Shown one piece after another: positions 28,415 to 32,460 of a stretch of 64,000 nt of DNA (position 1 is its first letter; the number at the start of each line of letters is the position of its first letter). Origin of the DNA: Promethearchaeota archaeon (GTDB taxonomy: Archaea > Asgardarchaeota > Lokiarchaeia > Sigyniarchaeales > SOKP01); assembly GCA_019057865.1 (NCBI GenBank), contig JAHLWP010000010.1:32001-96000 (forward strand), read 5' to 3'. The notes under the pieces were generated by a model. It was not told where the DNA came from and made no database searches. It was given only the letters and a program-made list of their open reading frames with translations. Made by a program: the position numbers and the translations under genes.

Positions 28415-29143
28415 TTATCCACCTCCCATTCCCAACTCTTCAAGTTTCTTGGTTTGCCGTTCGCCAAATAATCTTGTTATAGGATAGGTGAATAGAAAAT
28501 ATATAATCGCCACAATACCTATGGATAGAGCCCATAAATCAACGAAATTTGATGATATCTGTAAGGACGCGTTCGTCATCTCGACAATTCCAACCGTGAG
28601 GGCAAAGGATGAATCCTTGATGACCACCGCATATTCATTCGACCAGCTAGGAACCGCTAGCCGTAAGGCTTGTGGTAATATAATAGTTCGTAAAGCTTGG
28701 AAACGGCTCATCCCCAATGCACGAGCAGCCTCCTCCTGCCCTGGATTCACAGATAGAAGAGCGCCCCGAAAAATCTGAGATTGGTAAGCACCACTGCGAA
28801 GGGCAAGTGCCAAAATTACACCGACAAGCGGCCTATAACGTAGCTCTATGCCATAACATCTATTACCAAAGCAAATCTCATACAAATAAGTTAGATAAAT
28901 AGCAAAAATGAATATCAGAACCAGAATTGGGATTCCACGAAATATTTTTTCATAGCCACTCGCTAACCAATTAAGTTCTTTACCACCATAAACGCGCATA
29001 ATTGCCAGTGATAAACCTATCACAAACCCACCTAATAGACCTAGAGCTGTGAGCAATAATGTTGCAGGCAATCCTTTCGAAAGAATATAAAAAAAAATTT
29101 CAGCGGAATTGGGAGGATTCGGAATGCTGTTCACCCAAACCAT
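28415..29143 (-). CDS. Amino-acid ABC transporter permease
   Basis: FRGIPILV, GQEEAARALGM, LPQA, IKDSS. Confidence 0.93.
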   Translation of the reverse strand: MVWVNSIPNPPNSAEIFFYILSKGLPATLLLTALGLLGGFVIGLSLAIMRVYGGKELNWLASGYEKIFRGIPILVLIFIFAIYLTYLYEICFGNRCYGIELRYRPLVGVILALALRSGAYQSQIFRGALLSVNPGQEEAARALGMSRFQALRTIILPQALRLAVPSWSNEYAVVIKDSSFALTVGIVEMTNASLQISSNFVDLWALSIGIVAIIYFLFTYPITRLFGERQTKKLEELGMGGG

Positions 29144-29928
29144 TTTTCGATGAGTAAATCCATAGTTCCATCTCCAAAGGCATTAAGGATGACTGTATTG
29201 ATTTCTTTCATCAGCTCGGGTTCTTCCCAACGACACCAAAGTGCTGTAGGCTCAGCTGGTACTGTGAATATAGACTTAAATGCGTATGTTTTGGCATAGA
29301 CGGTAAAAACTGGTTCATCTACAAATGCAGCATCAATCGTTCCAGCATCTAATGCGGCCATAAGTATGTTAGCTTTAGGGTATACTAAAAGATCTACGCC
29401 TTCAGTCATGCCGAGGTCTAATAAGGTATCATGCTGTGTGGTACCCGATTGAACACCAACAGTGTAAGCTGTAATTTCATCTAAACTAGTGATATTAATC
29501 GTTGAGGCAGTCTTGACGATGACAACCTCAGTTACACGAATGTAGGGCACGGAATGCGCGAGTTGTTCTGCACGAGTTGGTGTAACCATCATTGCAGCCG
29601 CAATCATATCGATAGTGCCTGCTTTACAAGCACCAATCAAGATATCAAAATCCATATCTGTCATCCTTAGGCTAACATTGAGATGCGCAGCTATCATGGC
29701 TGACAGATCGACGTCGAAACCTTGCCACTCATCCGCAGTAACATTAAATATCTCAAAAGGGGGCCATGGTTCATCAGTTCCCACATAAATATAGCCTCGA
29801 TCCTGAATCTCCTCGAGTAATGTCTTCCCTTCTGGTTCTGCGGTAAGAAGTGGAGGTATAAACCATCCAAGACCGAATCCAACTGCGAGACCAACTATAA
29901 TACCTAATATAGCAAATTCTCTTTTCAT
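29131..29928 (-). CDS. Amino-acid ABC transporter substrate-binding protein (family 3), N-terminal membrane anchor
   Basis: PPFE...GFDVDL, T.TRAEQ, VGVQSGT, KWFG. Confidence 0.92.
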   Translation of the reverse strand: MKREFAILGIIVGLAVGFGLGWFIPPLLTAEPEGKTLLEEIQDRGYIYVGTDEPWPPFEIFNVTADEWQGFDVDLSAMIAAHLNVSLRMTDMDFDILIGACKAGTIDMIAAAMMVTPTRAEQLAHSVPYIRVTEVVIVKTASTINITSLDEITAYTVGVQSGTTQHDTLLDLGMTEGVDLLVYPKANILMAALDAGTIDAAFVDEPVFTVYAKTYAFKSIFTVPAEPTALWCRWEEPELMKEINTVILNAFGDGTMDLLIEKWFG

Positions 29929-30619: not shown

Positions 30620-31114
30620 TTACTTCCCTCCTTCATATTCAGGTTTATTAATCCAGTTTTCATATTCATCTTCTGGAACAAAGAAGAAATCTGTCATTTT
30701 CCCTTCTCTTACTTTGTTAAAAACAGCTCTAACTCTTCTTCCTTTTTTAATCTTAGAAGGAACTAAATTTTCTGAAAAAATTCCTTGAAGTAATGCGGTT
30801 TCTGCTCCATCTAATTTTATAAAGCCTATACTATAAGGTACGGCTTTTATAAATGCAGAAGTTGTATACCATACAATTGTGCTAACTTCTATAGTTCCTG
30901 TTTGGTTCAATTCTACCCATTTAGCAGGAGCAAAACAATCAGAGCAATTGATCCTTGGAGGCATCCATGTCTTTCCACATTTAGTACATTTTGTGCCCAA
31001 TAGTTTTTTATTTTTCATTAATTCTAAAAAGAATTTGGATTGTCCTCCCATTGTGTATTTGTAGTTGATCCTTATTACATCTCTTATTTGATGCTCCTGA
31101 AATTCTTCGCTCAT
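30620..31114 (-). CDS. DUF35 (Zn-ribbon/OB-fold) protein
   Basis: KCTKCG..WMPPRINCSDC; its ATG overlaps the TGA of the spliced thiolase (ATGA, 31111-31114). Confidence 0.9.
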   Translation of the reverse strand: MSEEFQEHQIRDVIRINYKYTMGGQSKFFLELMKNKKLLGTKCTKCGKTWMPPRINCSDCFAPAKWVELNQTGTIEVSTIVWYTTSAFIKAVPYSIGFIKLDGAETALLQGIFSENLVPSKIKKGRRVRAVFNKVREGKMTDFFFVPEDEYENWINKPEYEGGK

Positions 31115-32460
31115 GGTTTTTTCAACCCCTCCTCATTTGTCATTACTATAACCGCAGCATATGCCGCTCCAGGGCCTCCTATTGAGTGAGCAATAGCTCT
31201 GCCATTTTCAATTGTTTTTATTTGATGCTTTCCAGCATCCTCTCTAAGCTGAAGTGCTGCTTCACCTGTAGACATTATCCCGGTAGCACCAACAGCATGA
31301 CCACATCCAATTAATCCACCGCAAGGGCAACATGGTAATTCACCATCTAACCATGGCCCCTCCCCTGGTTTTTCAAAGGATTTTTCAATCCATGGACCAC
31401 CTTCCCCAAAAGGAACAAACCCAAGCTCCTCATAAGAGATGACTTCTTATCCAGAGAATATCGAACTGATATTCATTGTCCTGAGAAGGCATCATGGAGC
31501 TCTGCTAAATCAATTTGTTCCTTTATTTTATTATAGTCTAAGCCTGCCATCTTATACGCGGCTTTTGCAGCAAAAATATTTGAATATAACCTTCCCATAT
31601 CTTCTCTATTTCCTATAAAACAATCGGTATTTGCTGCTGCGACACCAGTAATCCAAATCGGCTTTTCAATTTTTAATTCTCTTACTTTTTCTTCACTTGC
31701 GAGAATTAATGCTGCTGATGCTTCTGAATATAAACAACAATCAAGCATCTTGAAGGGATGACAAATTATCCTTGAGTATAGGACATCATCTAAGGAAATT
31801 TTCATAGGGGATTGTGCTTTTGGATTGAGCATAGCATTCCCATGGTTTTTTACGCTAACTTTAGCCAATTTTAACTAATTGTTAAGATTTAAAGCCATTT
31901 GTTCTTCGGTAGGATTACCGAATTCTTCATAATGGGCGTTTACCATAGAAACGTACGAGGTTGCTGCCATCATTCCCATAGGATATTTACGAAATATGTA
32001 GAACTTACACCATTTTTTCGTAAGTCATATCAGTAGAATAGGCGATGGCATTCAAAACTTCAGGTGTCGTAGTTCCTGTTTGTTCGTCATAGCAATCATT
32101 GCATTTTTCGACTCCTATACATAAACATAAGTCAGATAAGCCAGAAGCTACTTCTGCAAAAGCCATTCGGACAGTATATCCTCCTGTTGCTCCTCCTGTT
32201 GCTATACGAGTACCAGGTTTATTATTCATCCCTATATAGGAATTACAAAAAATATCTGGCATAAATTGTCTTTCAAATAGCTCATTATAGATTCCATATA
32301 CCGTAGATTGTAAATCCTTATGAGTTATTTCAGCACCGTTATTATTTGCGTCCTCAAGTGCTAATTTTGTTGCATCATATGCTAATTCAAAATATGTCTT
32401 ATCTAAATACTGGGCTTTAAAAGGAGTAATTCCTATACCTATAATCGCAACTTTCTTCAC
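31111..32460 (-). CDS. Thiolase superfamily protein, predicted four-exon gene (join 32460-32017, 31985-31891, 31860-31478, 31448-31111; 1260 nt, 419 aa)
   Basis: Removing three BHB-flanked inserts gives one ORF: ...DMTYE|YPMGMMAATSYVSMVNAHYEEFGNPTEEQMAL|VSVKNHG...ELHDAFSGQ|EVISYEELG...GGLIGCGHAVGATG...AHSIGG...KKP*. No other stops or frameshifts. Confidence 0.85.
31449..31477 (-). other. Putative BHB mRNA intron 3 (29 nt, phase 1)
   Basis: Outer helix CUUCU/AGAAG, central helix CAGG/CUGG (one A.G mismatch), bulges AC^A and AU^A, inner stem GAAUAUC/GAUAUUC; product GGA C|AA GAA. Confidence 0.78.
31861..31890 (-). other. Putative BHB mRNA intron 2 (30 nt, phase 2)
   Basis: Outer helix AAU/GUU, central helix GGCU/GGCU (two G-C, two G.U), bulges UU^A and AA^A, inner stem AAUCUUAAC/GUUAAAAUU (8 of 9 paired); product AUG GCU UU|A GUU. 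Confidence 0.85.
31986..32016 (-). other. Putative BHB mRNA intron 1 (31 nt, phase 0)
   Basis: Central helix UACG/CGUA, bulges AA^A and AA^U, inner hairpin; cutting after the second bulge nucleotide gives UAC GAA|UAU CCU. Confidence 0.8.

What the first reader, a model, noticed from the sequence alone, without database searches (positions are those of the whole stretch)
31449..31477. Intron 3: 29-nt insert beside the catalytic HDAF motif, with one mismatch in the central helix
mRNA sense: GC CUUCU CAGG AC^A AU GAAUAUC AGUUC GAUAUUC U CUGG AU^A AGAAG UC. A strong 5-bp outer helix fixes the register. The central helix is C-G, A.G, G.U, G-C, or a 1-nt-shifted full CAGG/UCUG helix with uneven bulges. 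The canonical register gives GGA CAA GAA in frame; a 29-nt excision placed one base earlier would leave a UAA, and the shifted register would frameshift. This suggests an endonuclease tolerant of relaxed motifs.
Basis: partly seen in the sequence, partly recalled or inferred. Interest (0 to 1): 0.82.

Follow-up and report, generated by a model that had tools for sequence, protein, structure and literature searches.

The report
tRNA-type micro-intron in Asgard thiolase
A 29-base hairpin breaks the reading frame of a thiolase gene in an Asgard (Promethearchaeota) archaeon and has the shape of a tRNA-type intron, one of dozens of such 30-base micro-introns in this gene family, which points to routine RNA splicing of protein-coding messages in the closest prokaryotic relatives of eukaryotes.

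Summary
Window 31477-31449 (minus strand) is a 29-nt insert in a thiolase gene. It is absent from 38 congeneric orthologs. Removing it restores ELHDAFSGQEVISYEELGF exactly.

Around the protein-defined junction the RNA forms bulge-helix-bulge (BHB) geometry:
- a 5-bp outer helix;
- a 4-position central helix (C-G, A.G, G.U, G-C);
- two 3-nt bulges;
- an inner hairpin.

I found no RNA data, so splicing is inferred. The comparative evidence is strong:
- 91 Promethearchaeota orthologs carry 50 distinct 28-35-nt inserts at 10 positions.
- All 50 show BHB geometry at the protein-defined junction; 39 of 50 have a perfect central helix, against 1.4% at wrong registers.
- Helices show compensatory changes.
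- Interrupted genes stay under purifying selection (dN/dS about 0.03-0.09).
- Conserved codons are split across inserts.

The genome encodes a two-paralog EndA (catalytic subunit with the Crenarchaea-specific-loop lysine) and RtcB.

Intron 3 is the only insert with an internal central-helix mismatch. The mismatch comes from a synonymous exon change (TCT to TCA). An out-of-frame 28-nt register is 4.3 kcal/mol more stable. However, a diverged homologous intron (L152) has U.U at the same position in an intact gene.

The scan noted similar introns elsewhere in this genome.

The parts
31111..32460 (-). Thiolase gene (SCP2/archaeal type) in four exons. Removing the three inserts gives a 419-codon ORF.
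   Evidence: Pfam Thiolase_N and Thiolase_C_1 hit the exon pieces. The spliced ORF has no internal stop and is 373/415 identical to an intact ortholog, with no internal gaps.
31449..31477 (-). Intron 3, 29 nt, phase 1 (C|AA). This is the finding.
   Evidence: Absent from congeneric orthologs. BHB parse.
31480..31483 (-). 5' strand of the central helix (CAGG). It is exonic and covers parts of the Ser and Gly codons. A31482 is the mismatched base.
   Evidence: Relatives with an intron at this site have TCT here, giving CUGG.
31451..31454 (-). 3' strand of the central helix (CUGG), inside the intron.
31484..31488 (-). 5' strand of the outer helix (CUUCU), exonic. It pairs with 31443-31447.
   Evidence: The constrained and free folds extend the exon-exon pairing outward (GAUG/CAUC in both; GAGCUCC/GGAGCUU in the longer fold).
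31443..31447 (-). 3' strand of the outer helix (AGAAG), exonic.
31455..31476 (-). Inner helix and 5-nt loop. The arms are AUGAAUAUC and GAUAUUCU, the loop is AGUUC, and U31475 is bulged.
   Evidence: The family design is 1 + 9 + 5 + 9 + 4 + 2 = 30 nt. This intron is one base short in the 3' arm.
31861..31890 (-). Intron 2, 30 nt, phase 2. Layout: GGCU UU|A ... GGCU AA|A. The product reads MALVSV.
   Evidence: Covariation in 11 homologs. A metagenome relative lacks exactly these 30 nt.
31986..32016 (-). Intron 1, 31 nt, phase 0. Layout: UACG AA|A ... CGUA AA|U.
30620..31114 (-). Downstream DUF35-type gene (ChsH2 zinc ribbon plus OB fold). Its start overlaps the thiolase stop (ATGA).

Best explanation
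Window 31477-31449 is a tRNA-type (bulge-helix-bulge) micro-intron in the pre-mRNA of a thiolase gene of a Promethearchaeota (Asgard) archaeon.

Proposed mechanism. The transcript folds so that exon bases CAGG pair with intron bases CUGG. An exon-exon outer helix and an intron hairpin flank this central helix. The heterotetramer-type splicing endonuclease EndA cuts after the second base of each 3-nt bulge (GGAC|A and GGAU|A). RtcB then joins the exons to give ...UCA GGA CAA GAA GUC... This restores the frame into the C-terminal domain.

The A.G mismatch is a derived state. A synonymous TCT-to-TCA change in the exon turned a CUGG/CUGG helix with two G.U pairs into C-G, A.G, G.U, G-C. The flanking helices, which leave exactly 7 + 7 nt between them in this register, most likely hold the productive register against a more stable 28-nt alternative.

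Shown here: the anatomy; absence from orthologs; exact restoration of the protein; the family-wide BHB rule; covariation; purifying selection; presence of EndA (two paralogs) and RtcB.

Inferred: that EndA is the enzyme; that cleavage occurs at these two bonds; and how efficient the splicing is.
For: 1. Excising the three inserts yields one 419-codon ORF, 90% identical to intact orthologs and without gaps. All orthologs read SGQEV across the junction.

2. Among 91 orthologs there are 50 distinct 28-35-nt inserts at 10 positions. At the registers defined by protein alignment alone, 39 have 4/4 and 11 have 3/4 central-helix pairs in exact BHB geometry. At wrong registers in the same sequences the figures are 1.4% (4/4) and 13% (3/4 or better).

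3. Covariation. At the intron-2 site, 89.5% of cells are paired, against 23-47% when the partner is slid. Five pairs changed on both sides, and 0 of 500 shuffles reached the score. The S0 site gives the same picture, including an exon third-codon base that covaries with the intron.

4. Selection. G000 versus L064, which share all three introns, gives dN/dS 0.085; exon 4 alone gives pN/pS 0.12. Intron-bearing pairs L066-L068 and L065-L070 give dN/dS 0.035 and 0.027.

5. L152 carries a homologous 29-nt intron at the same bond. Its central helix is CUGG/CUUG (U.U at the same position). One hairpin pair has changed from A-U to G-C. The gene is intact (86% amino-acid identity) and exon 4 has pN/pS of about 0.18.

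6. In sister introns the conserved Gln or Ser codon is split across the insert (C|AA, AG|T), so the residue can arise only by joining the RNA.

7. The EndA alpha subunit has Tyr/His/Lys and the CSL lysine, its best solved-structure match being A. pernix 3p1z_B. A second paralog lacks the catalytic His. RtcB is present.

8. I3-like geometry is expected by chance at about 1e-4.
Against: - No RNA run holds this locus, so no junction read exists.
- The productive register ranks only 5th of 142 BHB parses (-21.4 kcal/mol). The 28-nt CAGG/UCUG register reaches -25.7.
- I3 is the only one of the 50 inserts with an internal central-helix mismatch.
- The strictly contiguous inner helix next to the bulge is only 1 bp unless U31475 is bulged out.
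- G000 and L064 are identical over 173 nt around I3. That pair therefore says little about how long this exact allele has persisted.
- Two structure-plus-ORF censuses of the whole genome showed little or no enrichment over decoys. The genome-wide scale rests on unchecked notes, not on my data.
Confidence: 0.8

Rival explanations
1. I3 is, or was, a BHB intron, but the G000 allele is crippled. The TCT-to-TCA change favours the CAGG/UCUG register. Most transcripts would then be mis-spliced (28 nt removed) or left unspliced, and the gene is on its way to becoming a pseudogene.
For: The out-of-frame register is 4.3 kcal/mol more stable. With TCU in the exon the correct register ranks first. I3 is the only internal mismatch among 50 inserts.
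Against: - Exon 4 shows pN/pS 0.12 between the two genomes that carry this allele.
- The allele is identical in three independent assemblies.
- L152 keeps a mismatch at the same helix position in an intact, conserved gene.
- The next-best thiolase matches in this genome are 43% identical or less, so no close second copy could replace it.
Confidence: 0.1
2. The insert is skipped by the ribosome (translational bypass, as in phage T4 gene 60 or the mitochondrial 'byp' elements), not removed from the RNA.
For: A stop codon (UGA) follows CAA directly. A hairpin sits at the take-off site. The insert is short.
Against: - Take-off and landing codons do not match (CAA versus UAA).
- Introns 1 and 2 have no stop next to the take-off codon and no matching codons.
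- In sister inserts the conserved residue is encoded by a codon split across the insert (C|AA in L066-L069, AG|T in L065/L070), which bypass cannot produce.
- Bypass would not explain why the 4-bp helix and 3-nt bulges sit at the junction.
Confidence: 0.03
3. The insert is a small mobile DNA insertion with a target-site duplication. It simply breaks the gene, and there is no removal at the RNA level.
For: A 12-nt imperfect direct repeat (TTCTCAGGACAA / TTCTCTGGATAA) flanks a 17-nt core. The first 21 nt are 18/21 identical to an intron 7 nt upstream in other lineages.
Against: - Strong purifying selection on interrupted genes, including the exon downstream of the insert.
- There are no other lesions in the gene.
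- No other copy of the 29-mer exists in the genome at up to 4 mismatches.
- The helices covary.
- The direct repeat is what a two-fold symmetric BHB with a near-palindromic central helix produces. L152 keeps it.
Confidence: 0.04
4. The insert is removed from the RNA, but by a nuclease other than EndA. The BHB-like shape would be incidental to another hairpin-recognising system.
For: Nothing tested here links EndA to this substrate. The inserts have a uniform 9-bp/5-nt-loop hairpin and a near-invariant A as first base (46/50). EndA is not known to require either.
Against: The rule 'cut two bases 3' of a 4-bp helix on each strand' predicts the protein-defined junction in all 50 inserts. That is the defining property of EndA substrates. 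The genome has the broad-specificity EndA class and RtcB.
Confidence: 0.03

Closest known systems
BHB intron in the cbf5 pre-mRNA of Crenarchaeota (Watanabe 2002; Yokobori 2009, PMC2738675)
   Same: - A short intron inside an archaeal protein-coding ORF.
- A relaxed BHB motif.
- The host has a hetero-oligomeric EndA.
- Gain and loss are lineage-specific.
   Different: - cbf5 has one intron in one gene family. Here there are three introns in one gene and 10 positions across the ortholog family.
- The introns have a uniform design of about 30 nt.
- The host is an Asgard archaeon and the gene is metabolic.
- Splicing has not been shown experimentally here.
Non-canonical tRNA introns of Asgard and TACK archaea, cut by (alpha-beta)2 EndA with the L1/CSL loop (PMC5829648; bioRxiv 10.64898/2026.10.13.758758)
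   Same: - The same motif and the same enzyme class.
- Many introns per gene.
- Repeated gains.
   Different: The substrate is an mRNA, so the junction must keep a reading frame. The exon half of the motif is made of codons, and synonymous sites carry the pairing.
BHB intron in the 5' UTR of HVO_1309 mRNA, Haloferax volcanii (PMC7714728)
   Same: EndA processes an mRNA.
   Different: The Haloferax intron lies in a UTR, not in the ORF, and is a single case.
HAC1/XBP1 unconventional splicing by IRE1 and RtcB (from my own knowledge), and SOS splicing of transposons out of animal mRNAs (PMC12779559, abstract only)
   Same: - A small, structure-defined insert (26 nt in XBP1) is cut out of an mRNA by an endonuclease without the spliceosome.
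- An RtcB-type ligase joins the ends.
- A frame shift is corrected.
   Different: The nuclease differs and so does the motif (twin stem-loops, or inverted-repeat pairing). Those systems are eukaryotic. XBP1 splicing is regulatory.
Translational bypass elements (T4 gene 60; mitochondrial byps of Magnusiomyces; from my own knowledge)
   Same: Inserts of 27-55 nt inside ORFs, with a hairpin and a stop codon, are tolerated without loss of the protein.
   Different: Those elements need matching take-off and landing codons and stay in the mRNA. Here the codons do not match, and in sister inserts the codons are split.

Membership tests
Archaeal BHB intron (EndA/RtcB substrate) | [quoted passage not shown] | tested here: met
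   The geometry is exact, with 7 + 7 nt between the outer and inner helices. One of the four central pairs is A.G and one is G.U, so this is the relaxed form.
Archaeal BHB intron (EndA/RtcB substrate) | Cuts after the 2nd base of each bulge give the functional junction | tested here: met
   The predicted junction GGAC|AAGAAG restores SGQEV and the frame. This matches all intact orthologs.
Archaeal BHB intron (EndA/RtcB substrate) | Flanking helices h (exon-exon) and h' (within the intron) | tested here: met
   h is CUUCU/AGAAG and extends further in the folds. h' is 7 bp, plus an A-U pair with a 1-nt bulge.
Archaeal BHB intron (EndA/RtcB substrate) | The structure is kept by compensatory change in homologs | tested here: met
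   Sister introns show five double-change pairs at each of two sites, with 0 of 500 shuffles reaching the score. For I3 itself there is one A-U to G-C pair against L152, and the outer helix is kept through G.U pairs. The I3 lineage has only three sequences.
Archaeal BHB intron (EndA/RtcB substrate) | The host encodes a splicing endonuclease of a class that accepts relaxed motifs, and an RtcB ligase | tested here: met
   There are two EndA paralogs. The L001 ORF has Tyr/His/Lys and the CSL lysine, with 3p1z_B as best match. The L002 ORF lacks the His. RtcB is at C75:110910-112217.
Archaeal BHB intron (EndA/RtcB substrate) | Excision and ligation seen in RNA | not testable with these tools
   No RNA run is listed for this DNA.
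cbf5-type pre-mRNA intron | Lies in the cbf5 gene of Desulfurococcales or Sulfolobales | tested here: not met
   The host gene is a thiolase. Relatives are labelled Promethearchaeota. It works like the cbf5 intron but is not a member of that family.
Translational bypass element | Matching take-off and landing codons, with the insert retained in the mRNA | tested here: not met
   The codons are CAA and UAA. In sister inserts the codons are split.
MITE-like insertion with target-site duplication | Several copies in the genome, and decay of the broken gene | tested here: not met
   There is no second copy at up to 4 mismatches. dN/dS is 0.085 and the gene has no other lesion. A 12-nt imperfect direct repeat is present.
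SCP2/archaeal-type thiolase with a DUF35 partner (host gene) | Thiolase N- and C-terminal domains, an HDxF fingerprint, and a DUF35 gene downstream | tested here: met
   Pfam PF00108 and PF22691 hit the exons. PF12172 and PF01796 hit the next gene. HDAF lies at the end of exon 3. That HDAF corresponds to the HDCF fingerprint is from my own knowledge.

The most novel reading that the evidence does not exclude
The roughly 30-nt BHB micro-introns are a mobile family, not just tolerated relics.

- Intron 3 shares its first 21 nt (18/21 identical) with an intron that sits 7 nt upstream in other lineages. It is also flanked by a 12-nt duplicate of the exon.
- It may therefore have arisen by relocation of that intron. 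Duplication of the near-palindromic exon segment CUGG could have created both halves of a new BHB.
- The 173-nt tract of complete identity around it, between genomes that differ by 7.4% elsewhere, would be a co-conversion tract left by recent spread.
- If so, Asgard archaea have an active system of intron gain in mRNAs that depends on EndA and RtcB. In that system the enzyme reads the register from the flanking helices rather than from the central helix.
Probability: 0.3. Interest if true: 0.9.

Novelty: new variant of a known kind. Interest (0 to 1): 0.78.

Why it matters
The papers I read record endonuclease-spliced introns in only two archaeal mRNAs: cbf5 and one 5' UTR (PMC2738675, PMC7714728). 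My searches of the held library found no report of such introns in Asgard protein-coding genes.

Here a single metabolic gene family of Promethearchaeota carries such introns at 10 positions, up to three per gene, with clear signs of selection on their RNA structure. Earlier notes of this scan, which I did not check, report many more genes of this kind in the same genome.

If RNA data confirm it:
- Asgard archaea would routinely splice mRNAs with the tRNA splicing machinery.
- Gene callers would be mis-annotating many Asgard genes as fragments or pseudogenes.
- Intron gain, loss and movement in the lineage closest to eukaryotes could be studied directly.

Intron 3 is a useful natural test substrate. 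The productive register is not the most stable one, and nature provides both a 'repaired' central helix (CUGG/CCAG in relatives) and a second mismatched one (CUGG/CUUG in L152).

Tried and rejected
- **RNA evidence.** No RNA holder is listed for this DNA. Only DNA contigs could be laid.
- **Rfam and ARAGORN on the window.** No matches.
- **Genome-wide census by BHB geometry plus ORF merging.** There was no enrichment over identity-pairing or shifted-partner decoys. Ordinary gene junctions and AT-rich pairing swamp any signal.
- **Census using the family design** (7-9-bp hairpin, 4-7-nt loop). It gave only a weak excess: 348 loci against 286-321 in decoys, and 1305 candidates against about 1208. 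I make no claim about the genome-wide number from my own data.
- **Other copies of I1-I3 in the genome.** None were found. Three 19-nt near-matches to the I3 hairpin are not introns.
- **Complementarity of distal exon flanks.** It is stronger in alleles with an intron at this site (-11.7 against -6.0 kcal/mol, p = 4e-7). Control positions also differ (p = 0.001 and 0.05), and two other sites show nothing, so this is only suggestive.
- **Search for a near-identical protein spanning the junction** (a possible spliced transcript assembly). None above 91% identity was found.
- **Free MFE fold of 66 nt.** z = -1.7, and the fold does not form the BHB.
- **Not attempted.** The protein-representative search (search of protein representatives), structure prediction (structure prediction, fold search) and complex prediction (complex prediction) were not used, because the question concerns RNA.

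Full report
**What is there**

The minus strand of window 32460-31111 encodes a thiolase. Pfam Thiolase_N and Thiolase_C_1 hit its pieces. A DUF35-type gene follows, and its start overlaps the thiolase stop. The thiolase frame is broken three times.

I aligned the DNA with 18 intact orthologs from the same genus. The breaks are three clean insertions of 31, 30 and 29 nt, and nothing else is wrong with the gene. The third insertion is the finding. Removing 31477-31449 joins GGAC to AAGAAG and gives ELHDAFSGQEVISYEELGF, which is the sequence of every intact ortholog. Removing all three (32016-31986, 31890-31861, 31477-31449) gives one 419-codon ORF. It is 90% identical to an intact ortholog and has no internal gap.

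- The outer helix is CUUCU/AGAAG.
- The central helix is CAGG/CUGG, read as C-G, A.G, G.U, G-C.
- The bulges are AC|A and AU|A.
- The hairpin is 7 bp with a 5-nt loop.
- If A31476 pairs with U31455 and U31475 bulges out, exactly 7 + 7 nt lie between the outer and inner helices. That is canonical hBHBh' geometry.
- Cuts shifted by +1 or +2 give the same mRNA. A cut at -1 gives UAA. The alternative CAGG/UCUG helix gives bulges of 5 and 4 nt and a 28-nt, out-of-frame excision.
- This combination of features occurs at 4.2e-5 of genome positions for L = 29, or about 1.3e-4 for the three valid registers.

**It is real DNA**

The same 29 nt occur in an ENA metagenome contig (L064). They also occur in a contig from a different study (X6 record 19).

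**Organism and enzymes**

- The genome is 4.26 Mb and 99.7% complete, with about 30% G+C across the window.
- Orthologs from genome collections are labelled Promethearchaeota, the former Lokiarchaeota, including Loki_b31 and Loki_b32.
- There are two EndA paralogs.
  - One matches the catalytic alpha chain of the A. pernix (alpha-beta)2 enzyme best (3p1z_B, E = 3e-35). It keeps the Tyr, His and Lys and the lysine of the Crenarchaea-specific loop (INKPR aligned to VEKPR).
  - The other has Ser where the catalytic His should be.
- This is the class reported for Asgard archaea and linked to relaxed substrates (PMC5829648, PMC12397907).
- RtcB is present and uninterrupted.

**Is it spliced?**

No RNA run holds this DNA, so the case rests on comparison. 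The comparative evidence has five parts.

1. *The family.* Truncated proteins that end at HDAF led me to metagenome relatives with other inserts at or near this site. A scan of species genomes added 80 orthologs. In 91 orthologs there are 50 distinct inserts of 28-35 nt at 10 positions; 27 of them are exactly 30 nt.

   I fixed each junction from the protein alignment alone. Every insert then has 3 or more of 4 central-helix pairs in exact BHB geometry, and 39 have all four. At wrong registers in the same sequences, 1.4% have four pairs and 13% have three or more.

   The inserts share one design: 1 base, a 9-bp arm, a 5-nt loop, a 9-bp arm, the 4-nt helix strand, then 2 bases. The first intron base is A in 46 of 50.

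2. *Covariation.* At the intron-2 site (11 sequences), 89.5% of cells pair, against 23-47% with slid partners. Five pairs changed on both sides, and no shuffle out of 500 reached the score. A second site gives the same result. There, a third-codon exon base (GAT to GAC) covaries with its intron partner (A to G).

3. *Selection.*
   - Interrupted genes are as constrained as intact ones. dN/dS is 0.035 for L066-L068 and 0.027 for L065-L070, against 0.034-0.037 for pairs of intact genes.
   - G000 and L064 share all three introns and give 0.085. Exon 4, which lies in another frame unless 29 nt are removed, gives pN/pS 0.12.

4. *Split codons.* In L066-L069 the invariant Gln codon is split C|AA. 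In L065 and L070 the Ser codon is split AG|T. Only joining of the RNA can make these residues, which rules out ribosomal bypass.

5. *A diverged homolog of intron 3 itself.*
   - L152 has a 29-nt intron at the same bond, with the same one-base asymmetry.
   - One hairpin pair has changed from A-U to G-C.
   - The outer helix is kept through G.U pairs.
   - The central helix is CUGG/CUUG, which puts U.U at the very position where G000 has A.G.
   - Its gene is intact, 86% identical in protein, with saturated synonymous sites. Exon 4 has pN/pS of about 0.18.

**What is special about intron 3**

Intron 3 is the only one of the 50 inserts with an internal mismatch in the central helix. Nine others mismatch at the outermost pair and one at the innermost.

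All eight relatives with the other intron type at this bond have exon TCT and a perfect CUGG/CCAG helix. G000 and L064 have TCA.

- With TCU in the exon, the productive parse ranks first (-24.4 kcal/mol).
- With the native A, it ranks 5th of 142 (-21.4), and the 28-nt register is best (-25.7).

So the mismatch is a derived, synonymous exon change. It makes the productive register the less stable one. Selection on exon 4 and the L152 case argue that the enzyme still uses the productive register, probably because the flanking helices set it. I cannot exclude reduced efficiency.

**History**

- The first 21 nt of intron 3 are 18/21 identical to an intron that sits 7 nt upstream (AG|T) in L070 and L113. 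This is the top score among 978 cross-site pairs (15, against a shuffle mean of 6.1 and a maximum of 14).
- Intron 2 shares a 13-nt core with the L065 intron.
- Intron 3 is flanked by a 12-nt imperfect copy of the exon (TTCTCAGGACAA / TTCTCTGGATAA). L152 keeps such a repeat too.
- G000 and L064 differ at 62 of 838 positions. They show no difference over 173 nt around intron 3 (31369-31541) or over 74 nt around intron 2 (31840-31913).
- These points suggest movement and recent exchange of introns, but they do not prove it.

**Literature**

The papers I read record only two confirmed archaeal mRNA BHB introns: cbf5 and the 5' UTR of HVO_1309 (PMC2738675, PMC7714728). Six searches of the held library found no report of such introns in Asgard protein-coding genes. 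A 2026 preprint covers Asgard tRNA introns only. Earlier notes of this scan report similar inserts in other genes of this genome. I did not test those.

**Verdict**

This is a relaxed BHB micro-intron in an Asgard mRNA, and it belongs to a large, structurally uniform and evolutionarily dynamic family. Splicing itself remains to be shown in RNA.

Noticed in passing
window 31986-32016 and 31861-31890 (minus strand): The same gene has two more micro-introns, of 31 and 30 nt. The best BHB register for intron 2 gives MALVSV, as in several orthologs. It does not give the MAKVSV that a naive gap placement suggests.
   Followed up: yes
loci L062, L064-L071, L076, L083, L086, L087, L092, L098, L101, L106, L113, L114, L118, L122, L124, L141, L143, L148, L152: Thiolase orthologs of Promethearchaeota MAGs carry 28-35-nt BHB inserts at 10 different positions, up to five per gene (L076). 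Presence and absence vary between species. L092 has three, at sites partly of its own.
   Followed up: yes
window 31369-31541 and 31840-31913 compared with L064: Tracts of 173 and 74 nt around introns 3 and 2 show no difference between G000 and L064, although the rest of the 838-nt overlap differs at 7.4%. This could be a co-conversion or recombination tract, or constraint on the exon flanks.
   Followed up: partly
window 31449-31477 compared with L070:1767-1796 and L113:1878-1907: Intron 3 shares 18 of its first 21 bases with an intron located 7 nt upstream in other lineages. Only the last 8-9 bases, the part that must pair with the local exon, differ.
   Followed up: partly
window 31476-31487 and 31447-31458 (minus strand): A 12-nt imperfect direct repeat of exon sequence brackets the 17-nt hairpin core of intron 3. 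This makes the two halves of the BHB nearly identical. L152 has the same arrangement.
   Followed up: partly
whole genome G000: ARAGORN finds only 30 tRNA genes in a 99.7% complete genome, and 18 of them have intron calls. Many tRNA genes are probably too interrupted to detect.
   Followed up: no
L021:1346-1379, with L086, L118, L124 and L148: At the intron-1 site a second, unrelated intron lineage (ACGU AU|A ... GCGR AA|G) varies from 28 to 35 nt through changes in hairpin length. It always has the outermost central pair unpaired.
   Followed up: partly
window 28415-29928 (minus strand): An amino-acid ABC transporter permease and binding-protein pair lies in a segment with clearly higher G+C (0.42 against about 0.30 nearby).
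   Followed up: no
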